IMG/VR virus record: IMGVR_UViG_2802429241_000002
DNA: 16,551 bases
DNA from: a virus
Lineage: Duplodnaviria > Heunggongvirae > Uroviricota > Caudoviricetes
Direction: 5' to 3' (one strand)
Positions within the stretch are counted from its first letter, which is position 1. The number at the start of each line of letters is the position of its first letter. The notes below the pieces were generated by a model. It was given only the letters and a program-made list of their open reading frames with translations, had not been told where the DNA came from and ran no database searches. Made by a program: the position numbers and the translations under genes. Positions 62 to 15,472 of the stretch are shown here, piece by piece.

Positions 62-390
62 CAGTTCACCACCTGTTCAAACTCTGCGCTGAACTCAACA
101 CGCAGCATACTGACCCGCGACGACCATTTTGCGCAGGTCACCTTTATCTGCCGCCACTCATAAGGCGGCGTCCACAGAAAGGCTTTCCAGCCCCCGTGCT
201 CTTCCAGAAACGACTCCAGTACCGTGGCCTCCTCACGGGGGACAGAAAGCGTCACGCTGTACGTTTTCAGGTTGGCATTCAGCCCGGCAGGCGCTCGCTG
301 GGAACAGCCATCACCAAAGCGTACCTTTCTTACAGAAGGGGCCGAAGCCACATCCATACCGGGTTTCACTTTCCAGCGGAAGGTTTTCAT
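61..390 (-). CDS. M: minor tail protein M
   Basis: 109-aa ORF (MKTFRWKVKPGMDVAS...EFEQVVN) is near-identical to lambda gpM from memory; start overlaps the tape-measure stop (ATGA). Confidence 0.95.
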   Translation of the reverse strand: MKTFRWKVKPGMDVASAPSVRKVRFGDGCSQRAPAGLNANLKTYSVTLSVPREEATVLESFLEEHGGWKAFLWTPPYEWRQIKVTCAKWSSRVSMLRVEFSAEFEQVVN

Positions 391-3300
391 CGTCCACCTC
401 CGGAGAACAGACCACCATCACGGGACTGCTGTTGCATAAAGTCCGCTGCTGCTTTTTTCCCGAGGTCATAAACCACCTTCAGGGCAGCCGGACCTATCTG
501 CCCGTTCGTGCCATCGTTATTGATCTCAATGTTGTACTGCGGGGCAAACATCGCCATACCTGAACCACCAATATCCGCCACAACCCCCAGCTTACCATCA
601 GCACCACGACGCAGAGGCAGAATGGCTTCAGGCCCAGCTTCCCCCATCACACCTGCACCTTTTGCAAAAGCAAAAAACGTCGGACGGTTAACCACCGTGC
701 CACTGTAGCGACTCAAATCAGCAGACTGATAAACACCACCATCAGCATTGGGCGTCACACTGGCAGTTGCTGCACTCCCCCAGCCAAACGCCGAACCAAT
801 CCCCTTAACTGCCTGCATCATGGACATCTGGGCCATGATTTTTGCCAGATCAGAAAGGAGCGAGGCGGTAAAAGATTTGAAGTTCAGTTTTCCGGTGGTA
901 CAGAAGGTTGCCAGTGCATTACCTGCACTGTTAAATGCCGCTGTAAGCATCTGCTCAGCAGTGCCTGCCGCATTATCCGCATCTGCCGTGAAATTCTGAA
1001 ACGCCCGCATGGCACCGTTTTTCCAGTTACCCTGAGCAATTTCAAGCTGTTGCCAGTAACGGCGATTCTCATTCAGTTGTCGGTTCAGGCTCTCCGTCAG
1101 CGCCTGCTCGGCCTTTCTGTAGTCATCCGTGTTATATGTCCCTTTCTGCTCACTATCCCGCCTCAACTGCTCCAGCTGTTGCTGGTATTTCTGGCGAAGA
1201 CTCAGTTGTACCTGATATCGCTGCCGCTGCTGATCACCCATACCCACCGTGGCGATATCCAGGTCATGTTGCTGACGCTGAGCGCGCTCTTCTTCAGCCA
1301 GTTGACTGGTCAGCTGAATTGTTTTTTTCTTCAGCTCGTTGAGTGCCGTCTGTTTCTGAAGCTCCTGCTGTTTTACATCCAGCAGCGTCAATGCCTGAAT
1401 CAGTTCATCTTTACGGGCAAGCACACTCTTTTCATCTGCCGTCAGTTTTTTCCCGTCCAGGTCGCTGATGCGCTGCTGCAGAGCCAGAAGCTGTTTATGC
1501 GCTTCTGTCATCCTGTCAGTGGCAATGCCTGCTGACTGTCTTGCAGCAGCAATCTGCCCTTCCACCTGTGCCTGTTGCTGACTGTACTGCAGCAATAACC
1601 GGGTGGCCTCATCATTACGGGTTTCGCGTGTTTTTTTCTTACCGGATGCCAGGGCTTTCTCGTAACGTTCATTTTCACGTTGTATCGCCGCATCCCTGAC
1701 AGCCTGATCGGCGTACTGCATGGCATTAATACGCGCAATTTCACGCTGATGCCGTGCTGCTTCCGTTTCATTCATCCGGTTCAGTGCAGCATTTTCAGCA
1801 TTACGGCGTTTCTGTTGCTCCTGATAATTCCGCTCTGCCTGCTCTTTTGCATCCTGCAAATCCTTCTGGCGTTTTTTCTCCTGAAGATCGTTAAGACGCT
1901 GCTGATCGTATTCAACCTGAGAAGATGATGCCGTCCAGGGGAGTCTTTTCGCCCGCGACACTTTCTCCTGTAAAGCGGCAATCTGTTCATCCAGCGAGTC
2001 TTCACGACCAATATTCATGGCCGCATCCCAGAACTGCTTCCACCAGTCAGACAAAGTTTGCAGCGTGCTACCCAGCGCATTGAGGTTATTATCAATATCC
2101 GCAGTACGACGATCGGTTTCCTCTGCCAGTGCAGACATGGCTATCCGTGCAGCATCACTGGACCGCCCCTGCTCCCCAAGGACGCGTATCTGCTCAAGCT
2201 GAGTGGCAGTAAGAAAATGCAGCTCATTGTCCAGAGCCTTCGCGGCATTTACAGGATCATCCTTCAGCCGCTTAAACTGACTTATGGTATCGCTGACCGA
2301 CTGGCCAACCGATCGCTCCATCTGTGCGGCAGCTCTCGCCACCATACCGATATCGTTTCCACGAAATGCACCACTCCCCACCACCTGAGCCAGCGCACCG
2401 GCTGCAGCATGTTGCGTGATACCATTCCCGGAAATAGCACGACTGAGCGTCCACAGTTGCCCGGCAGTGACTCCGGCATAATGCCCCGTCAGCGACAACT
2501 GGCGGTTAAATTCTTCCCCCTCCTTCTGACCGTCATACCAGGCTTTACCCAGACCATAGACGGCCGCGGCAATACCGCCAATAACCCCGCCCAGCATCAT
2601 GCCTTTCGGTGACATCAGTGTGTCTATCCATCCGGCACGGTTAGCCAGCGTTATCCCGGATCCCCTCAGCGCACCTAAATTGCCGCGGGCCAGTTCACCT
2701 ATCAGAACGCCTATCTCCTGGCGGGCCGCTGCACTTTTCAGACCCAACGAATGCGTGGCTTTTCCTGCCTGCTCCATTTTGCGGATATACACTTCTGCAG
2801 CACTGCTTACCCCCAGTTGGGCAGCCTTAGCACGAAGCAACTCAGAAGAAGAAAGATTCTGGCGGGTTGCCTGCTCTTTAAGCTGACGGATAAACGCCAC
2901 TTTCTGTCGGGTAGACTCTTCCTCAGCCTGTGTAAGAACACGGGTTTTCGCAGTAACCTCAGAAATCAGCGCCAGATAATCCTGCTGACCAATCCCGCCA
3001 CTGTTTCTGGCCTGTCGGATCTGCTGCTGAATACGCTGTAATTCCTGCAGCCCCGCACTGGCCTGGTTCACACTGTCAATCTGACGATAAAACGCAGCAG
3101 CCGCTTTATCCTGAGCCTCCGCCAGAGCCATGGCCTGCGCCTGTTCCTCGCGCATTTTCTGGCTCAGCGCCTCCATGCGCTGGCGGGTTTTCTCCACCTC
3201 GCGGGCCATGCGTTCATGAGCCTGTGCGTTCTTCTCCACCGTCTGCGCATGGACGGATGCGGCTGTTGCAGCCGAAGAAGCCGCCTGCGTTGTCTGCCGG

Positions 3301-3461
3301 GCGGCCTGAGTCTGACGCTCCATAAAACGCTGCATACGGGCAGAAGACCGTTCTGCATCGCTGGCTGCACCATTCAGAAGGTTTTTGATACGGGGGATTT
3401 CATTTTTAAACTCTGCCGCATCAATCCCCAAATCAATGACCAGGTTGGCTATCTGGTCCAT
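387..3461 (-). CDS. H: tail tape measure protein (gpH-like), ~1024 aa
   Basis: Long Ala/Gln-rich coiled-coil ORF; C-terminus ...INNDGTNGQIGPAALKVVYDLGKKAAADFMQQQSRDGGLFSGGGR matches the lambda gpH C-terminus; N-terminus MDQIANLVIDLGIDAAEF resembles gpH MAEPVGDLVVDLSLDAARF. Start placed at ATG 3461 (GGAGG 8 nt upstream) rather than the track's 3491. Confidence 0.9.
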   Translation of the reverse strand: MDQIANLVIDLGIDAAEFKNEIPRIKNLLNGAASDAERSSARMQRFMERQTQAARQTTQAASSAATAASVHAQTVEKNAQAHERMAREVEKTRQRMEALSQKMREEQAQAMALAEAQDKAAAAFYRQIDSVNQASAGLQELQRIQQQIRQARNSGGIGQQDYLALISEVTAKTRVLTQAEEESTRQKVAFIRQLKEQATRQNLSSSELLRAKAAQLGVSSAAEVYIRKMEQAGKATHSLGLKSAAARQEIGVLIGELARGNLGALRGSGITLANRAGWIDTLMSPKGMMLGGVIGGIAAAVYGLGKAWYDGQKEGEEFNRQLSLTGHYAGVTAGQLWTLSRAISGNGITQHAAAGALAQVVGSGAFRGNDIGMVARAAAQMERSVGQSVSDTISQFKRLKDDPVNAAKALDNELHFLTATQLEQIRVLGEQGRSSDAARIAMSALAEETDRRTADIDNNLNALGSTLQTLSDWWKQFWDAAMNIGREDSLDEQIAALQEKVSRAKRLPWTASSSQVEYDQQRLNDLQEKKRQKDLQDAKEQAERNYQEQQKRRNAENAALNRMNETEAARHQREIARINAMQYADQAVRDAAIQRENERYEKALASGKKKTRETRNDEATRLLLQYSQQQAQVEGQIAAARQSAGIATDRMTEAHKQLLALQQRISDLDGKKLTADEKSVLARKDELIQALTLLDVKQQELQKQTALNELKKKTIQLTSQLAEEERAQRQQHDLDIATVGMGDQQRQRYQVQLSLRQKYQQQLEQLRRDSEQKGTYNTDDYRKAEQALTESLNRQLNENRRYWQQLEIAQGNWKNGAMRAFQNFTADADNAAGTAEQMLTAAFNSAGNALATFCTTGKLNFKSFTASLLSDLAKIMAQMSMMQAVKGIGSAFGWGSAATASVTPNADGGVYQSADLSRYSGTVVNRPTFFAFAKGAGVMGEAGPEAILPLRRGADGKLGVVADIGGSGMAMFAPQYNIEINNDGTNGQIGPAALKVVYDLGKKAAADFMQQQSRDGGLFSGGGR

Positions 3462-3762
3462 AACGCACACCTCCGGAAATACCTTCCCCAAGATGCATCA
3501 GTTCTTCGTCCGTTCGCTCCGGTATCCCGTTCTCTTCCGGTAAAAGGCTGAAATCAGCCACCGCAGCATCACTGCTGCCGGACACCATTCTCACGATCAA
3601 TGCCTTCAGCGAGGCAAACTGCGCATCCATCCACACATCACTGAAGCTCTGCATCCGGAAATAATCGCCCCACTCACCAAGCTCAGTGGCCGACATTTCC
3701 GACAGCATCCGCCGCCAGTCTGCCCGCCGGAACTCCCGGGCAAGCCGCATGACAAACTGCAT
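3433..3762 (-). CDS. T: tail assembly chaperone T segment; reading frame entered by -1 frameshift from G (expressed as G-T fusion, not from its own ATG)
   Basis: ORF lies in the -1 frame relative to G, overlaps the G 3' end, and sits immediately upstream of the tape-measure gene, as in lambda G/GT. Confidence 0.7.
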   Translation of the reverse strand: MQFVMRLAREFRRADWRRMLSEMSATELGEWGDYFRMQSFSDVWMDAQFASLKALIVRMVSGSSDAAVADFSLLPEENGIPERTDEELMHLGEGISGGVRYGPDSQPGH

Positions 3763-4157
3763 TTCCCGCGTCAGGACTTTTCCGGCGTCAGCACCTCATG
3801 CTCATCATCCCCGGCATTATCAATGGTCCCCATACCGCTCAGCGACAGAACCATCTCCGCCCCCGCCCCCAGGGCATCATACGACCATGTTGTAATAACG
3901 GATGCGCAAAGCGTCTCTACATCCTTAGACTGATCCGCATTCCACAGTGAGCGGGAAACCAGCCAGGCATTGATATCCATCCCCATCCGCAGAAAAGCAA
4001 TCTGTCGTTCAGCCTCCGGCAGTTCTCCCTCTTCGGCATCAAACTTTGCCGTTCGCTGCTGAACAAACGCCAGATATTCAATTCTCTGCAGCCCGGACAG
4101 CTCACTGAGCACCACGGACTGCTTTTCATAATTAAACGTGCCCTGTTTCAGAAACAT
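3433..4157 (-). CDS. tail assembly chaperone G-T fusion product (predicted -1 programmed ribosomal frameshift near 3777..3783)
   Basis: G frame ends ...HEVLTPEKS*; the -1 frame is open from 4 codons upstream of the G stop and continues 110 codons to 3433. Putative slip site G_GAA_AAG (minus strand) resembles lambda's G_GGA_AAG. Confidence 0.6.
3771..4157 (-). CDS. G: tail assembly chaperone G
   Basis: MFLKQGTFNYEKQSVVLSELSGLQRIEYLA... resembles lambda gpG (MFLKTESFEHNGVTVTLSELSALQRIEHLA...). Start at ATG 4157 (alternative ATG at 4160); GGTGGAG SD just upstream. Confidence 0.85.
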   Translation of the reverse strand: MFLKQGTFNYEKQSVVLSELSGLQRIEYLAFVQQRTAKFDAEEGELPEAERQIAFLRMGMDINAWLVSRSLWNADQSKDVETLCASVITTWSYDALGAGAEMVLSLSGMGTIDNAGDDEHEVLTPEKS

Positions 4158-4173
4158 CATGTTCTCCACCTGC

Positions 4174-4197
4174 AAAAAAGCCCCGGATAACCGGGGC
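4174..4197 (-). terminator. intrinsic terminator-like hairpin between V and G (minus strand: GCCCCGG-UUAU-CCGGGGC followed by U6)
   Basis: Perfect 7-bp GC stem, 4-nt loop and T6 tract read directly from the sequence, 15 nt upstream of the G start. Confidence 0.6.
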
Positions 4198-4217
4198 AAA
4201 TGATGAGTATCGTCCTG

Positions 4218-4961
4218 TTAACCTGCGGCGCTGACAGCCACCGTAGCCACTGCCACAAAATCGCCGTCAGAAGTCATGCCCACAATGCTGACACTGCCCT
4301 GCTTCACGCCTTTCACCGTGGCCACAAGCCCGTTCAGGGTCACCGTGGCAGTCTGTGGATCTGTCGAATGCACACTGATCGCTTTGTCACTGGCTCCGTC
4401 AGGTTTTACTGTAAAGGTCAGCGTGGTGGTTGCTCCCACTTTTACACTGGCAGATGCCGGTGCCACCGTCAGCCCGGTAACGCCCACAGTTTCAGTGCCT
4501 TCCTCTGCCAGATACGGACGCCCCACACCGCTGATTTTCACTGTGCGGGTCATCACGTCTTTTGAGGCAATGGTTTTACCCAGTGAGCTCAGCCAGCCAC
4601 GGAAAACATCAACAGTGCCGTTGGGATATTTGATACGAAACGCGCAGACTTCACCGGAGTCGAACAACTGAACCAGTTTTTTCTGCCCGCTGTCACCCGG
4701 ACGCCAGGCCAGCGTCGCCGAAGTATCACCGACTGATTTCTGCCCCTGGGTTGTCGTTTTCCAGTCTGCATCTTCATCATCGAGATAAGTGTCATCTTCT
4801 GCATCAGCGGTCATTTCGCCAGGTTGCAGATCCTTCACCATCGCAAGACGCAGCCAGTCAGTGTCCGACAAAGGGTTCGCAAATGCGTCGCCGTTGCCGG
4901 TATACATCCAGAACGTCGTTCCCGCACCTTTCGTTTTTGCCAGTGGATTTGGTGTGGTCAT
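4218..4961 (-). CDS. V: major tail protein V (with C-terminal Ig-like domain)
   Basis: MTTPNPLAKTKGAGTTFWMYTGNGDAFANPLSDTDW... closely resembles lambda gpV ([36 protein letters not shown]...). Start at ATG 4961 with AAGGAGGTGG SD; the track's upstream extension to 5036 would overlap U. Confidence 0.93.
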   Translation of the reverse strand: MTTPNPLAKTKGAGTTFWMYTGNGDAFANPLSDTDWLRLAMVKDLQPGEMTADAEDDTYLDDEDADWKTTTQGQKSVGDTSATLAWRPGDSGQKKLVQLFDSGEVCAFRIKYPNGTVDVFRGWLSSLGKTIASKDVMTRTVKISGVGRPYLAEEGTETVGVTGLTVAPASASVKVGATTTLTFTVKPDGASDKAISVHSTDPQTATVTLNGLVATVKGVKQGSVSIVGMTSDGDFVAVATVAVSAAG

Positions 4962-6679: not shown

Positions 6680-8638
6680 TTACGCCGTACATTTCACCAG
6701 ACCGCGGTGATCAACTGGCGCGACACCGGCGTCAATACGCACTTTCGTTGTCACGCCATCCACACTGAAGCCCTCCATCTGATCAACATATGGCGTATCC
6801 ACACCGTTGAGATAAGCCACTTCAATCGTATCGGAGCCTTTTGACGCAGCCAGGTAGAAGGTGGTCTGGCTGTTATCATCAAGACGAGGCTCTGCAATAA
6901 CGGTCGCAAAATCTTTCACCGGGTTAATAATACCGGCGTTAATGTCAGCCCCCTTGACACTTGAGGAGCGAATGACCTGGTTAGCAACAGACTCCATCGC
7001 CGTCGGTACCAGTACGAACGCAGGACGAATATTCAGATGACGCTCCCCCTCTTTCTGAACACGCATCAACTGGCGGGCTTTATCCAGCGATGCCACGTCC
7101 ATTGCAGCGCTCTCCAGTACGTTTGCATGTTTCGCTTTATCGAACAGACTTACATTATCTGTGGAGATTTTCGGGTTAGACGTCAGAATGGCATAAACCA
7201 GATCGGCAATAGTGGATTTCGCCGCACGGCCCAGCTTCATCGGGACATCGGTCAGCATATTCAGATCATCATTGATAATGGCCTGACGGGTGATACTGAA
7301 CAGCTCGCCATAGGTCGCCAGTGCAATAGTGGCCTGTTTATCTCCGGTGGTGACGTATTTATATTCCGCCCCTTCACGCACCTGGCGCAGAGCACTGAAG
7401 CCCCCCATACCCACACGATGGGCAATTTTAAAATCAGACAACTGACCTTTCCGCGTCCACTGTTCGTAAGTTTCAGGAGCATCTTCCCAGCCCTGCAGAA
7501 TGGCTTTGTTCGCAACATCCAACAAAATATTACCGAAGTCAGACGTACTGTGTGTGAACGCCGCACCAACCATCTGCATCGGATTATAACCGGAAACCCC
7601 AATACCCCGTTCAGTCAGTGACATACGGGCATATTCACGCAGGGTCATCCCGTTGTAGACATTATCACGTTCGGTTTTTTCAAATCCGGCACGCGCCATC
7701 AGCGCCTGGCGGATCCCGTCCCCCACAAAATTACCGTTACCGGCATAAATATGAGCCGGGGTATTTTTATTGGATGGCGTGGACTCGCGCCCCATCTCGT
7801 TCAACAGCTTTTCGCGGGCCTGCTCCAGCGAACATTCAGGATCGGCAAGACACTGAGCCTGCAGCGTCTGATAACGCCCGCCAAACATGGCAAACAGATC
7901 ATTAATACCGTTTACACGCGCTTTTTGCTCTGCCAGTACCTGCGCACGGATACTGTTTTCATCCACCACGGGTGCTGCTGCCTGCACTGGCGTCCGGGAG
8001 GCTTCAGGTTCATTATCCTGTACGCGTGGAGCACTGTTGCGTGGCGGAGTAATCATGTTTCGAATGGATTCCGGCATCTTTTTAAATTCCTCTGTACGTT
8101 TTGACTGAATACATGCCATTGCCTTAACGGCTGGCGTCACCTGATCAGCAAATCCATGTGCCAGACATTCGGCACCGGACATCCAGGTCTCATCCGCCAG
8201 CATGGCAGCAATTTCATCGGTGGTTTTCCCGGTTTTCTGTGCATAAGCGGGTAACAGAACCGCCTCAACTTTATCAAGCAGGTCGGCATAGGTGCGCATG
8301 TCCTCCGCATCACCGCCCGTAAAGCCAAATGGTTTATGAATCATCATGAAGGTGTTTTCCGGCATAATGACCGGGTTTCCCACCATCGCAATGACCGACG
8401 CCATTGACGCCGCCACACCGTCGACATAAACGGTAATGGACGCACCATGTGTTTTCAGTGCATTAAAAATGGCGATGCCTTCAAAGACATCGCCACCCGG
8501 TGAATTGATATGGAGATTAATGTGGGTGATATCGCCCAGTGCACTCAGATCACTGATAAACTGCTTCGCTGTAACACCCCAGAAACCAATCTCGTCATAA
8601 ATATAAATATCCGCGTCACTCTGGTGACCAGCCTGCAT
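6680..8638 (-). CDS. prohead protease (ClpP/S14-like) - scaffold - major capsid protein fusion (~652 aa)
   Basis: N-terminal region contains a ClpP-like motif (INSPGGDVFEGIAIFNALK...VDGVAASMASVIAMVGN, Ser in AASM); central coiled-coil segment; large C-terminal domain typical of capsid proteins. Start placed at ATG 8638 because the track's upstream extension overlaps the portal gene by ~250 nt; SD at 8638 is weak. Confidence 0.8.
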   Translation of the reverse strand: MQAGHQSDADIYIYDEIGFWGVTAKQFISDLSALGDITHINLHINSPGGDVFEGIAIFNALKTHGASITVYVDGVAASMASVIAMVGNPVIMPENTFMMIHKPFGFTGGDAEDMRTYADLLDKVEAVLLPAYAQKTGKTTDEIAAMLADETWMSGAECLAHGFADQVTPAVKAMACIQSKRTEEFKKMPESIRNMITPPRNSAPRVQDNEPEASRTPVQAAAPVVDENSIRAQVLAEQKARVNGINDLFAMFGGRYQTLQAQCLADPECSLEQAREKLLNEMGRESTPSNKNTPAHIYAGNGNFVGDGIRQALMARAGFEKTERDNVYNGMTLREYARMSLTERGIGVSGYNPMQMVGAAFTHSTSDFGNILLDVANKAILQGWEDAPETYEQWTRKGQLSDFKIAHRVGMGGFSALRQVREGAEYKYVTTGDKQATIALATYGELFSITRQAIINDDLNMLTDVPMKLGRAAKSTIADLVYAILTSNPKISTDNVSLFDKAKHANVLESAAMDVASLDKARQLMRVQKEGERHLNIRPAFVLVPTAMESVANQVIRSSSVKGADINAGIINPVKDFATVIAEPRLDDNSQTTFYLAASKGSDTIEVAYLNGVDTPYVDQMEGFSVDGVTTKVRIDAGVAPVDHRGLVKCTA

Positions 8639-8651
8639 CCTGAACCAGGAA

Positions 8652-10160
8652 TTATTCTTCGGACTGGTCGTCGGTGTGCTGCGGCTCCTGTCGTTTCGTT
8701 GCGGCACTGCTGCCTCCTTTATCACTGGCCGGATCGGTATCAAATACCAGATCCAGCTTGCGGTTTTCATCAATTTCGGCCTTGCGCCGACGTTTGACAT
8801 CATCCGGATTACGACCACCTGCACGTACCCAGTCTGATTCTGTCGCCGCTCCACCACGAATCTGAATTTTCCAGGCCTCAGCCTCCTTAACAGGGTCAAT
8901 CCACGGCATCACCGGTCCGGAATACACCGCGGTATACAGTGAAGAACGGTCAAGATCGCGGGGTAGCCTGATAACACCGGATGCCACAGCCTGTTTCAGC
9001 CAGGCACGATACATCGGGCGGGTGACGGCACCAATAAACCAGTCCTGCAGGATCAGGTAGCCATCAGTAGACTCAACCAGTTCCTGACGCTGGGCGCTGT
9101 AAGTGCCGTTATAGTTGCGTGCTGTACTGGAAAAACTCAGACGACTGCCCGCCGCCACGGCACGCAACTGACCATTACGAAAAGTTTCAAGGTTAGGATT
9201 GGGGCGATCCGACTTCACCATTCCGATTTCTTCGCCGGGTTTCAGATCGTCGTAAATAATGCCTGGCTGAATGGTAAGCTCGCGTTCATTCTCCTTGCAG
9301 CCATTACCATCCGGTTCATAGCTCTGTCCGTCGCCTTTCCGGATGTACATCCCCAGAGCAGCGGCGATCCTTGCTGCAGTCAGCTCAGAATCTTCATACT
9401 CTTTCAGGGCACTGAGGCGGATCAGTACACCGGACAATAAAGACGTCCCGCGCATCTGGTGCAGACGGCGAACAAATTTAAGATGCAGCATTCGCTCTGC
9501 ATCCACTTCTTTGGTTTCCATCTGCCGTCCGGATACAGGACGGCTTTTATACACCAGATATTTTTCGGGACGCCCCCAGTCATCAACAAACACGCCCTGA
9601 TTCAGCCTGTTGCTCTCATCACTGGTCATGGGAATAAAGTCCGGCTCGAGCGCCTCCAGCCAGAAATGAACACCGGCAGAAGGCGTCAGGCTGTTTATGC
9701 GCCCGGAAACCATCTGGGCAAACACCTCACCATCGCGCAGCCAGGTACGCAGCATCAGACGTTCCAGCATCGGGCGGGTAAACTGCCCGGTGACTTCCGG
9801 ACTGACAGACCATTCACTCCATCGGGTGCGTATCTCCGCTGCCAGGTCACGGGCAATGGCCCCATTGCGTAATACCGGATGTGGCTCGACAATAATCCCG
9901 TTTTTCCCCACCACCCGTTCTTCCAGCTTGTCAAATACACCAATAACCAGATCGTGGTTGTTATCAAGGTAACGGGCCTGCTCACGTAACGACACGGCCC
10001 CGTACTGGCTTAACTGGTCGGCAGTTCGGTTTTCCCGCCGGGCTTTGTGTGTCCGCGTCGTTTTTACGGCCTCATAAGCCTGGATCACCGCACGGGAACG
10101 CAGCCTTGCCGCTTTCCATCCTGGTGAAAAAACGCCAATCACATCATCAAGAATAGCCAT
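8652..10160 (-). CDS. portal protein (~502 aa)
   Basis: Size and position (between gpW-like and prohead protease genes, downstream of terminase). Start at ATG 10160 (MAILDDVIG...) with GAGG SD and ATGA overlap with the W stop. Confidence 0.8.
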   Translation of the reverse strand: MAILDDVIGVFSPGWKAARLRSRAVIQAYEAVKTTRTHKARRENRTADQLSQYGAVSLREQARYLDNNHDLVIGVFDKLEERVVGKNGIIVEPHPVLRNGAIARDLAAEIRTRWSEWSVSPEVTGQFTRPMLERLMLRTWLRDGEVFAQMVSGRINSLTPSAGVHFWLEALEPDFIPMTSDESNRLNQGVFVDDWGRPEKYLVYKSRPVSGRQMETKEVDAERMLHLKFVRRLHQMRGTSLLSGVLIRLSALKEYEDSELTAARIAAALGMYIRKGDGQSYEPDGNGCKENERELTIQPGIIYDDLKPGEEIGMVKSDRPNPNLETFRNGQLRAVAAGSRLSFSSTARNYNGTYSAQRQELVESTDGYLILQDWFIGAVTRPMYRAWLKQAVASGVIRLPRDLDRSSLYTAVYSGPVMPWIDPVKEAEAWKIQIRGGAATESDWVRAGGRNPDDVKRRRKAEIDENRKLDLVFDTDPASDKGGSSAATKRQEPQHTDDQSEE

Positions 10161-14712: not shown

Positions 14713-14973
14713 ATGGATTACACAAATCTACCAAAACAAACTTTTGCTGATTTAATCGCACTCAGGCAAGCAGTCGTAGCTCTAATCAACTTGTTGCCGG
14801 AGAAGGAAAAGGAATTAGTTAAAGCGCTTCTTAACAGAACTGCCGCCGATTTTTCATCATATCCACTGACAGATGACCTTGCGGACCTTCCTGAATTAAT
14901 TGCAGCGTCCGCCATTAAGCTTACTGAAGAGATTTACCCTCCTCAAAAATCTTCACAAAATTCCTGCGAGTAA
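14713..14973 (+). CDS. hypothetical protein (86 aa), plus-strand moron inserted in the lysis cassette
   Basis: ATG 14713 preceded by GAGGTG SD; AT-rich with rare codons (CTA, AGG, AGA); followed by a strong intrinsic terminator on the same strand. No recognisable family. Confidence 0.6.
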   Translation: MDYTNLPKQTFADLIALRQAVVALINLLPEKEKELVKALLNRTAADFSSYPLTDDLADLPELIAASAIKLTEEIYPPQKSSQNSCE

Positions 14974-15472
14974 CTTCAATGCAATAATCGTAAAACGCCG
15001 CAAACTGCTCATCGCGGCGTTTTTTTTCATCTTCAGAAGGAATAAGCACCGACAATTTTTTATTCAGATCAGCGACGCTGCCCTCCTGTTTTTCAATGAG
15101 CGATTCAATGTCATCTTTTTCTGACCGCAATGCCGTCGGTGGCGTCTTCAGAGAACCAGTAATTCTTCCCGGTAGCTTTCCTTTGTAGGTTATCCACACA
15201 TTCTGCGCCTCTAAAATTATGGGGCGCTTTTCCGGCGACTGCTCATCCCCTTCACATAACCCGGCAGCAACATCCAGGAATACCTGTCTGATTCTCATTC
15301 TGGCTGCTGCCTCATAAAACTCCAGTGCAGCACCTTCAACACGATCCATAGTGATATCCAGCTCAAAAATCTCACCGTCAAAGCGTTCTTTGTCCTGTAA
15401 GGCTAAAGTTACCGTAACTTTATGCTCAAAATTACGGACTCCTTTCACAACCAGTTCATAGTCTTGAGTCAT
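14921..15472 (-). CDS. hypothetical acidic protein (183 aa) between holin and endolysin
   Basis: ATG 15472 lies 4 nt after the holin stop with SD (GAGGAGAG) inside the holin 3' end, suggesting translational coupling; no TM segments or recognisable motifs. Confidence 0.65.
   Translation of the reverse strand: MTQDYELVVKGVRNFEHKVTVTLALQDKERFDGEIFELDITMDRVEGAALEFYEAAARMRIRQVFLDVAAGLCEGDEQSPEKRPIILEAQNVWITYKGKLPGRITGSLKTPPTALRSEKDDIESLIEKQEGSVADLNKKLSVLIPSEDEKKRRDEQFAAFYDYCIEVTRRNFVKIFEEGKSLQ
14992..15027 (+). terminator. intrinsic terminator for the plus-strand 86-aa gene (stem CGCCGC/GCGGCG followed by T8)
   Basis: GC-rich hairpin and T8 run read directly; lies inside the coding region of the convergent 183-aa minus-strand ORF. 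Confidence 0.65.

What the first reader, a model, noticed from the sequence alone, without database searches (positions are those of the whole stretch)
3771..3790. Predicted G-T -1 programmed frameshift with a non-canonical slippery heptamer (G_GAA_AAG)
The T frame is the -1 frame of G and is open from 4 codons before the G stop (G ends ...CUG ACG CCG GAA AAG UCC UGA; the -1 frame reads GCC GGA AAA GUC...). Lambda uses G_GGA_AAG; here position 3 is A, so P-site tRNA re-pairing would need a G:U at the middle position while the A-site Lys AAG to AAA slip is standard. The conserved G/GT chaperone mechanism is therefore probably retained on a variant site, perhaps with different efficiency.
Basis: partly seen in the sequence, partly recalled or inferred. 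Interest (0 to 1): 0.45.

Follow-up and report, generated by a model that had tools for sequence, protein, structure and literature searches.

The report
Lambda-type G-T tail chaperone frameshift site
This is the well-known phage trick in which a few ribosomes slip back one base near the end of tail-chaperone gene G to make a longer G-T fusion protein; the slip sequence here, GGAAAAG, differs by one base from phage lambda's but is the commonest version in this gene family and is already annotated in phage N15.

Summary
On the minus strand, gene G (4157..3771, Pfam Phage_TAC_2) ends CCG GAA AAG TCC TGA. The T reading frame (Pfam Phage_tail_T) is its -1 frame and overlaps it by 25 nt. G_GAA_AAG (3783..3777) is the only shift-prone motif in that overlap.

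Comparative data support a real -1 programmed frameshift:
- The heptamer sits at a fixed distance from T's conserved LAREF motif in 18 divergent lineages, and is far better conserved than its flanks.
- All 15 DNA-checked E-K lineages use GAA and the rarer Lys codon AAG.
- T-frame residues are conserved upstream of the annotated T start codon, and that ATG is not conserved in relatives.
- The predicted 241-aa fusion aligns as one piece across the junction with lambda gpGT.

It is not new. The N15 RefSeq record marks GGAAAAG as the slippery sequence at the homologous position. phi80, mEp043, mEp237 and Fels-1 carry the same heptamer. About 74% of family representatives end in E-K, against 9% with lambda's G-K. 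The family pattern is G_GNA_AAR.

Efficiency is unknown. In vitro, G GAA AAG was reported as much less slippery than G GGA AAG. I found no 3' structure, only a weak, non-universal SD-like element upstream. Databases annotate T here as a standalone gene, which is probably an annotation gap.

Verdict: ordinary, low interest.

The parts
3771..4157 (-). Gene G, tail assembly chaperone (128 aa; an alternative ATG lies at 4160). The stop TGA is at 3773..3771.
   Evidence: Pfam PF06894 Phage_TAC_2, E=7e-40. Annotated as 'phage tail assembly chaperone G' in near-identical RefSeq loci.
3777..3783 (-). Shift heptamer G_GAA_AAG. In the 0 frame GAA (Glu) is at 3782..3780 and AAG (Lys) at 3779..3777.
   Evidence: It is the only shift-prone motif in the 25-nt overlap. 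It was invariant in 80+120 IMG/VR contigs and about 70 metagenome contigs of this lineage. The same heptamer sits at the homologous position in N15 (annotated there as the slippery sequence), phi80, mEp043, mEp237, Fels-1 and others.
3771..3795 (-). G/T overlap window. The T (-1) frame opens after the TGA at 3798..3796 and the G frame closes at 3771. The shift must occur inside this window.
   Evidence: Frame translations. In Salmonella relatives the corresponding window is only 19 nt and still contains GGAAAAG.
3433..3777 (-). T segment, read in the -1 frame after the slip (114 aa plus stop; first codon GTC at 3777..3775). The predicted GT fusion is 241 aa, with junction ...HEVLTPEK|VLTREMQF...
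   Evidence: Pfam PF06223 Phage_tail_T, E=5e-15. The GT fusion aligns as a single BLASTP segment with lambda gpGT (34% identity, 6e-43) and with N15 GT (36%, 1e-38).
3792..3798 (-). SD-like UGAGGUG, 8 nt upstream of the heptamer. It is a possible but unproven 5' stimulator.
   Evidence: Duplex with the anti-SD is -6.9 kcal/mol, but 16% of equivalent windows inside G do as well. Most sister contigs have the weaker GAGGCG. It is absent from the N15/phi80-type GGAAAAG sites.
387..3461 (-). Gene H, tape measure protein (context). Its ATG at 3461 overlaps the end of T by 29 nt.
   Evidence: Pfam TMP_2, TMP_4 and Tape_meas_lam_C.
4218..4961 (-). Gene V, major tail tube protein (context). It is followed by a terminator-like hairpin at 4197..4180.
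   Evidence: Pfam Phage_TTP_12 plus Big_2. Terminator scan.

Best explanation
A low-frequency -1 programmed ribosomal frameshift at G_GAA_AAG (3783..3777, minus strand) makes a 241-aa G-T fusion alongside the abundant 128-aa G. This is the same arrangement as lambda gpG/gpGT.

Proposed steps:
- Ribosomes decode GAA (Glu) and AAG (Lys) in the G frame.
- tRNA-Lys re-pairs from AAG to AAA.
- tRNA-Glu (anticodon xUUC) re-pairs from GAA to GGA, keeping the first-position G:C and third-position A:U pairs, with a G:U pair in the middle.
- Reading then continues with GTC (Val) in the T frame.

By analogy with lambda, the G part binds the tape measure protein and the T part recruits the tail tube protein. 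Neither ends up in the virion.

Shown here: gene identities and order, frame relationship, the single candidate motif, its conservation, and the colinearity of the fusion with lambda and N15 GT.

Inferred: that the slip actually occurs, its efficiency, and whether both tRNAs or only tRNA-Lys re-pair.
For: - G and T are Pfam-confirmed, and the gene order is U-V-(terminator)-G-T-H.
- T is in the -1 frame of G, with a 25-nt overlap whose only shifty motif is GGAAAAG.
- In 18 divergent representatives anchored on the heptamer, mean top-base frequency is 0.92 in the heptamer, 0.56 upstream and 0.69 downstream. The G frame stops within 8 codons in 18/18 and the T frame stays open in 18/18.
- 89 of 90 full-length G homologues end in PEK[S/P/F] after a hypervariable linker.
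- 15 of 15 DNA-checked E-K lineages use GAA and AAG. Elsewhere in the same genes AAG is only 33% of Lys codons and GAA 59% of Glu codons.
- T-frame residues between the heptamer and the annotated ATG are conserved (E7 at 90% or more, F10 invariant), whereas that ATG is not conserved.
- The fusion aligns across the junction with lambda and N15 GT.
- N15's RefSeq record marks GGAAAAG as 'slippery sequence for -1 translational frameshift'.
- Literature: the G/GT mechanism and its 30:1 ratio, and A_AAG / NNA_AAG shiftiness in E. coli (PMC5009743). tRNA-Glu GAA-to-GGA re-pairing via G:U is discussed for phage chaperone frameshifts, and a 'twofour' motif class is described (PMC10885494).
Against: - No experiment exists for this site.
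- In a reconstituted E. coli system, AUG GAA AAG gave mainly 0-frame product and was called unfavourable or less slippery than G GGA AAG (PMC6924986).
- A_AAG without a stimulator is near background (about 0.15%) in vivo (PMC4066793).
- I found no 3' structure (z = 0.08; 23 relatives). The upstream SD-like element is weak and not conserved.
- None of the annotated public records of this phage group whose annotation I inspected marks a slippage join.
Confidence: 0.85

Rival explanations
1. The frameshift occurs at the same place, but by single-tRNA slippage. Only tRNA-Lys slips on A_AAG (a hexanucleotide NNA_AAG site, as in IS1222 G_CGA_AAG or B. subtilis cdd A_CGA_AAG), and P-site tRNA-Glu does not need to re-pair. 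The protein product is identical to the dual-slip model (…PEK|VLTRE…).
For: - Relatives tolerate any base at heptamer position 3: GGGAAAG, GGAAAAG, GGCAAAA and GGTAAAG at the homologous position. tRNA-Ala and tRNA-Val cannot re-pair well on GGC or GGT.
- The review text on NNA_AAG sites describes this type of slip (PMC5009743).
Against: - Heptamer positions 1 and 2 are G in every GGNAAAR lineage seen. That suggests first-position re-pairing of the P-site tRNA matters.
- E-K is strongly over-represented (35 of 47 representatives), which a free P-site codon would not predict.
- Known single-slip sites rely on strong 3' stimulators, and none was found here.
Confidence: 0.3
2. T is made as a free 109-aa protein from the ATG at 3762, as PGAP and GenBank records annotate it. 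This would happen by re-initiation after the G stop 9 nt upstream, with no frameshift.
For: - An ATG lies at 3762..3760, preceded by GGGAA, just after the G stop.
- It is annotated as the T start in RefSeq and mEp460.
Against: - That ATG is not conserved. Aligned codons in relatives encode L, I, R or V.
- T-frame amino acids upstream of it are conserved.
- The SD-like GGGAA is only 2 nt from the ATG.
- In lambda, T is made only as the GT fusion, and its function needs the G part to bind the tape measure (PMC5009743).
- It would not explain the heptamer and synonymous-codon conservation.
Confidence: 0.07
3. The frame change arises at the RNA level, by transcriptional slippage on the A run. Alternatively the locus is a decayed G-T that makes no fusion.
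For: The motif contains a homopolymeric A4 run.
Against: - Four A's are far shorter than the runs known to support RNA polymerase slippage (established knowledge; review PMC5009743).
- The module is intact, and matches to the G-T stretch are present in 1849 of 5426 complete E. coli genomes and in isolated, plaque-forming phages such as Ayreon, mEp460 and Tritos. That argues against decay.
Confidence: 0.02

Closest known systems
Phage lambda gpG/gpGT -1 frameshift at G_GGA_AAG (Levin, Hendrix & Casjens 1993; Xu, Hendrix & Duda 2004, 2013, 2014, as cited in PMC5009743)
   Same: - Homologous G and T proteins (Pfam PF06894 and PF06223).
- Same U-V-G-T-H gene order.
- T is in the -1 frame.
- The heptamer sits at the homologous position, and the fusion is colinear across the junction (34% identity).
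- No evident 3' structure.
   Different: - Position 3 of the heptamer is A, not G. The P-site codon is therefore GAA (Glu) and re-pairs with a middle-position G:U, instead of GGA (Gly) with a wobble-position change.
- The G stop follows 1 codon after the heptamer rather than 5.
- Efficiency is unmeasured.
Phage N15 genes 14/15 (RefSeq NC_001901, misc_feature 10027..10033 'slippery sequence for -1 translational frameshift'); also phi80, mEp043, mEp237, Klebsiella Kp4865-4 and Salmonella Fels-1
   Same: The heptamer GGAAAAG is identical and lies at the homologous G-T position. N15 GT is 36% identical to the predicted fusion.
   Different: - N15/phi80-type G continues 5 codons past the heptamer and has no SD-like element upstream.
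- This lineage stops after 1 codon and has a weak UGAGGUG 8 nt upstream.
Single-tRNA NNA_AAG / A_AAG -1 sites in bacteria (IS1222 G_CGA_AAG; B. subtilis cdd A_CGA_AAG; Licznar et al. 2003 as summarised in PMC5009743; Sharma et al. 2014, PMC4066793)
   Same: - A_AAG decoded by the single E. coli tRNA-Lys is the core shifty element.
- The P-site codon does not follow the XXY rule.
   Different: - Those sites depend on strong 3' stimulators, and none was detected here.
- Here the P-site tRNA can still form three pairs (one of them G:U) after the slip.
E. coli dnaX A_AAA_AAG
   Same: - A -1 slip with tRNA-Lys on AAG.
- An upstream SD-like element is a known stimulator type.
   Different: - dnaX has a canonical heptamer, a strong 3' stem-loop, and about 50-80% efficiency.
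- Its product is shorter than the 0-frame protein rather than longer.

Membership tests
Lambda-type G/GT tail assembly chaperone frameshift (conserved tail-gene frameshift of dsDNA phages) | Two ORFs lie between the major tail protein gene and the tape measure gene. | tested here: met
   V (Phage_TTP_12 + Big_2) at 4961..4218, G at 4157..3771, T frame to 3433, H (TMP_2, Tape_meas_lam_C) at 3461..387.
Lambda-type G/GT tail assembly chaperone frameshift (conserved tail-gene frameshift of dsDNA phages) | The downstream ORF is in the -1 frame, overlaps the 3' end of the upstream ORF, and lacks a conserved start of its own. | tested here: met
   25-nt overlap. The ATG at 3762 is not conserved in relatives, and T-frame residues upstream of it are conserved.
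Lambda-type G/GT tail assembly chaperone frameshift (conserved tail-gene frameshift of dsDNA phages) | Sequence homology of both parts to lambda G and T. | tested here: met
   PF06894 at 7e-40 and PF06223 at 5e-15. The GT fusion against lambda gpGT gives a single segment, 34% identity, 6e-43.
Lambda-type G/GT tail assembly chaperone frameshift (conserved tail-gene frameshift of dsDNA phages) | A conserved slippery sequence lies inside the overlap. | tested here: met
   GGAAAAG at 3783..3777. The family-wide pattern G_GNA_AAR sits at a fixed position. Synonymous codon choice is GAA/AAG in 15 of 15 lineages.
Lambda-type G/GT tail assembly chaperone frameshift (conserved tail-gene frameshift of dsDNA phages) | The GT fusion protein is actually produced, at a low fixed ratio to G, and is required for tail assembly. 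| not testable with these tools
   Needs a reporter, a western blot or mass spectrometry, and genetics. I found no open-access paper reporting it for this phage group.
Canonical X_XXY_YYZ simultaneous-slippage heptamer | Positions 1-3 are identical and positions 4-6 are identical. | tested here: not met
   The heptamer is G G A A A A G, so position 3 is A. It fits PRFect's empirically defined 'twofour' class instead.
Single-tRNA A_AAG (NNA_AAG) -1 shift sites | An in-frame A_AAG tetramer. | tested here: met
   GAA AAG in the G frame.
Single-tRNA A_AAG (NNA_AAG) -1 shift sites | Dependence on a 3' stem-loop or pseudoknot stimulator. | tested here: not met
   Downstream fold z = 0.08. No consistent structure in 23 relatives. 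No Rfam match.

The most novel reading that the evidence does not exclude
G_GAA_AAG, not lambda's textbook G_GGA_AAG, is the prevailing and possibly ancestral G-T shift site of the lambda-G (Phage_TAC_2) family. A ribosome-kinetics study used this same heptamer as its poorly slipping comparison.

Its natural use would then imply one of two things. Either these phages run on a much lower GT:G ratio than lambda's 1:30, or local context makes up the difference. Candidate context features are an SD-like element 7-12 nt upstream, seen in this and several GAA/GCA/GTA lineages, and a 0-frame stop 0-1 codons downstream.

The natural series G_GNA_AAR (N = G, A, C, T) would be a ready-made test set for P-site re-pairing rules.
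Probability: 0.3. Interest if true: 0.45.

Novelty: new member of a known kind. Interest (0 to 1): 0.22.

Why it matters
This is mostly an annotation issue. Matches to this G-T stretch occur in about a third of complete E. coli genomes (1849 of 5426). In every annotated record of this phage group I inspected (five opened, including a RefSeq/PGAP genome and mEp460), T is listed as a standalone gene, so the real product, a 241-aa GT fusion, is missing from those records.

For mechanism it gives a modest pointer. The family's usual shift site is one that in-vitro work classes as weakly slippery. Measuring its in-vivo efficiency would show how much P-site mispairing a natural, ratio-critical frameshift tolerates.

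Tried and rejected
- **3' stimulator.** The whole junction region folded with z = -1.25. The 87 nt after the heptamer folded with z = 0.08. The +4..+63 segments of 23 relatives gave no consistent or significant structure. Rfam at gathering threshold on the whole window gave no match.
- **5' SD-like stimulator.** It is present here (UGAGGUG, -6.9 kcal/mol, 8 nt upstream) and strong in some Salmonella and metagenomic lineages. However, 16% of equivalent windows in G score as well, most sister contigs carry the weaker GAGGCG, and N15/phi80-type GGAAAAG sites have none. I keep it only as a possibility.
- **Other shift sites in the overlap.** None exist. In Salmonella relatives the overlap is only 19 nt and still contains the heptamer.
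- **Independent T initiation and transcriptional slippage.** Both were considered and rated unlikely (see rival explanations).
- **Heptamer polymorphism within the lineage.** A scan with fixed flanks and a free heptamer returned 120 of 120 GGAAAAG. This is uninformative about constraint because divergence is low.
- **Literature.** Licznar et al. 2003 (EMBO J) could not be retrieved. Xu et al. 2004 (Mol Cell), not being open access, was not requested. Measured values for GAA_AAG hexamers, and whether this phage group was listed there, are therefore unknown to me.
- **Genome-contig scan.** It returned only 15 loci because the peptide patterns were narrow.

Full report
**Observation**

The genes in this part of the window run on the minus strand. 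Reading that strand, an ORF from the ATG at 4157 (alternative ATG at 4160) ends ...CTG ACG CCG GAA AAG TCC TGA, with the stop at 3773..3771. The -1 frame reads GCC GGA AAA GTC CTG ACG CGG GAA ATG... and stays open to 3435..3433. The heptamer G_GAA_AAG occupies 3783..3777.

The only slip is that the T frame opens at 3795, right after a TGA at 3798..3796. The overlap is therefore 25 nt, or 7 codons before the G stop, not 4. No other shift-prone motif lies in that overlap.

In-frame A_AAG occurs at 16 of 4370 codon-pair positions in the window's genes. Finding one in a 7-codon overlap by chance has a probability of about 2.5%, and about 0.3% for the full GGAAAAG.

**What the genes are**

- The upstream ORF matches Pfam Phage_TAC_2, lambda tail assembly chaperone G (E = 7e-40).
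- The -1 frame ORF matches Phage_tail_T (E = 5e-15).
- The neighbours are U (Phage_tail_U), V (Phage_TTP_12 plus Big_2) and the tape measure protein H (TMP_2, TMP_4, Tape_meas_lam_C). This gives the lambda order U-V-G-T-H.
- A terminator-like hairpin lies between V and G at 4197..4180.

The G-T stretch searched (3400-4230) is 97.8-99.6% identical to phages cdtI, mEp460, Tritos, Ayreon and relatives. Matches occur in 1849 of 5426 complete E. coli genomes.

None of the five annotated records I opened marks a slippage join (Ayreon, a RefSeq/PGAP genome, mEp460, PhiR40_1 and Fels-1). T is annotated as a standalone CDS in each, in the RefSeq/PGAP genome and mEp460 from the ATG at 3762.

**Comparative evidence that the heptamer is a functional shift site**

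Protein homologues of G have a hypervariable C-terminal linker followed by an almost invariant ...(T/S)PEK(S/P). 89 of 90 full-length hits end in PEK[S/P/F].

I collected DNA from divergent relatives: Salmonella Fels-1 and other Salmonella prophages, Xenorhabdus, Providencia, Symbiopectobacterium, Serratia, Ewingella, metagenomic contigs, lambda, Stx phages, phi80, mEp043, mEp237, N15 and a Klebsiella phage. I anchored these on the motif.

A heptamer of the form G_GNA_AAR lies at a fixed distance from T's conserved LAREF motif in nearly every lineage examined; the exception is the Stx1a phage, which has A_AAA_AAG there:

| Heptamer | Lineages |
|---|---|
| GGAAAAG | this lineage, Fels-1 and Salmonella prophages, Xenorhabdus, Providencia, one Symbiopectobacterium locus, metagenomic L118-L121, phi80, mEp043, mEp237, N15, Kp4865-4 |
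| GGGAAAG | lambda, Stx2a phage, PhiR12_5, PhiR63_2, Serratia, two Symbiopectobacterium loci |
| GGCAAAA followed directly by TAG | Ewingella type |
| GGTAAAG | two metagenomic contigs |
| A_AAA_AAG | one Stx1a phage |

In 18 non-redundant representatives:
- Mean top-base frequency is 0.92 inside the heptamer, 0.56 in the 36 nt upstream and 0.69 downstream.
- The G frame hits a stop within 8 codons in 18/18, and the T frame is open in 18/18.
- All 15 DNA-checked E-K lineages use GAA and AAG. Elsewhere in the same genes AAG is only 33% of Lys codons and GAA 59% of Glu codons. This is the expected signature of selection on the nucleotides rather than the amino acids.

In some Salmonella prophages the overlap shrinks to 19 nt and still contains the heptamer. 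T-frame residues between the heptamer and the annotated ATG are conserved (E7 at 90% or more, F10 invariant). The ATG itself aligns with Leu, Ile, Arg or Val codons in relatives.

Joining G through AAG to the T frame gives a 241-aa protein (...HEVLTPEK|VLTREMQF...). It aligns as one BLASTP segment over its whole length with lambda gpGT (34% identity, E = 6e-43) and with N15 GT (36%, E = 1e-38).

**Is the variant heptamer new?**

No. The RefSeq record of phage N15 carries a misc_feature at 10027..10033 labelled 'slippery sequence for -1 translational frameshift'. Its sequence is GGAAAAG, at the homologous position in genes 14/15.

In a search of 1.84 billion 50%-identity cluster representatives, 47 full-length G-family proteins were recovered. 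Of these, 35 have E-K at the shift position, 4 have lambda's G-K, 3 have A-K and 5 have other residues. The sample is centred on this query and is protein-level only. With that caveat, GAA_AAG appears to be the family's majority state and lambda's heptamer the minority.

PRFect's empirically derived 'twofour' motif class covers GGAAAA-type sites. That paper also discusses tRNA-Glu re-pairing from GAA to GGA through a G:U pair in phage chaperone frameshifts (PMC10885494).

**How it most likely works**

The review by Atkins et al. (PMC5009743) summarises the lambda system. Low-level -1 shifting near the end of G gives gpGT at about 1:30 to gpG. The G part binds the tape measure and the T part binds the tail tube protein, and neither is in the virion. 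By homology the same applies here; this step is inferred.

At the site, tRNA-Lys moving from AAG to AAA is the classic E. coli shifty step. This follows from base-pairing logic and is not measured.

The family series G_GNA_AAR shows that position 3 is tolerant, while the two leading G's are fixed. That favours a two-tRNA slip with relaxed P-site requirements over a pure single-tRNA slip, but it does not exclude the latter.

**Efficiency and stimulators**

Published data argue that this site is intrinsically weak:
- In a reconstituted E. coli system, AUG GAA AAG gave mainly 0-frame product at all EF-G concentrations. It was described as unfavourable and 'less slippery' than G GGA AAG (PMC6924986).
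- In vivo, A_AAG alone is near background (about 0.15%) and reaches 5.6% only with the IS3 pseudoknot (PMC4066793).

I found no 3' structure. The fold z-score was 0.08, nothing consistent appeared in 23 relatives, and there was no Rfam hit.

An SD-like UGAGGUG lies 8 nt upstream (-6.9 kcal/mol), within the range used for such stimulators. However, 16% of comparable windows within G do as well, most sister contigs have the weaker GAGGCG, and N15/phi80-type sites lack any such element.

Stronger GGAGG-like elements precede the heptamer in some Salmonella, Ewingella-type and GGTAAAG lineages, and are absent from the GGGAAAG lineages examined. This is suggestive, but it is confounded by the acidic, purine-rich linker and by shared ancestry. 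Either the GT:G ratio is lower here than in lambda, or context helps. That remains open.

**Rivals**

- Independent initiation of T at the ATG at 3762 is what databases imply. The start is not conserved, upstream T-frame residues are conserved, and it would not explain the nucleotide-level conservation of the heptamer.
- Transcriptional slippage on four A's is implausible.
- Decay is contradicted by the module's presence in plaque-forming phages and its abundance.

**Verdict**

This is a correct identification of an ordinary, well-understood recoding site in a very common E. coli prophage tail module. The 'non-canonical' heptamer is the usual one for this gene family and is already annotated for N15.

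The useful by-products are:
- an annotation correction: T should be a join with G;
- the observation that the family's normal shift site is one classed as weakly slippery in vitro;
- a natural G_GNA_AAR series that could be used to test P-site re-pairing rules.

Noticed in passing
window 4180-4197 (minus strand): A G+C-rich hairpin followed by a T run (GCCCCGGTTATCCGGGGC TTTTTTGCAG) lies between tail tube gene V and G. The same position is annotated as a rho-independent terminator in mEp460, Ayreon and N15. It would lower G/T/H transcription relative to V.
   Followed up: partly
window 3433-3762 (minus strand); loci L001-L003, L100, L101: In every annotated public record of this phage group that I opened (RefSeq/PGAP, mEp460, Ayreon, PhiR40_1, Fels-1), T is a standalone CDS with differing start choices and no ribosomal-slippage join. 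Matches to this G-T stretch occur in 1849 of 5426 complete E. coli genomes, and the sampled RefSeq rows list T as a separate feature, so this may be a widespread annotation gap.
   Followed up: partly
proteins P0044 (212 aa) and P0027 (215 aa): Two database proteins carry both the G and T Pfam domains in one ORF through internal deletions. P0044 joins ...SYDA to GKVLTRE..., apparently between two GA(T/C)GCC repeats. They may be defective prophages or assembly artefacts. They would make only a GT-like fusion and no free G.
   Followed up: no
L094, L114-L117, L125, L126 (Ewingella type); L122, L124: Homologous G-T junctions use CTG GCA AAA TAG (G_GCA_AAA with the 0-frame stop immediately after) or AAG GTA AAG (G_GTA_AAG). 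In both, the P-site tRNA cannot re-pair well. Several have strong GGAGG-like sequences 7-12 nt upstream.
   Followed up: partly
window 15227-15233 (minus strand), inside ORF 14921-15472: A second in-frame G_GAA_AAG occurs mid-gene, again encoding S-P-E-K. The -1 frame there runs only 38 codons to a stop. It is probably incidental.
   Followed up: partly
window 3433-3461 (minus strand): The tape measure gene H starts (ATG at 3461) 29 nt before the T-frame stop, so the T frame and H overlap.
   Followed up: no
window 6680-8899 (minus strand): The longest ORF listed here (739 aa from a TTG start; the true start is not determined) lies where a head protease / major capsid gene would be expected. 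Its function was not examined.
   Followed up: no
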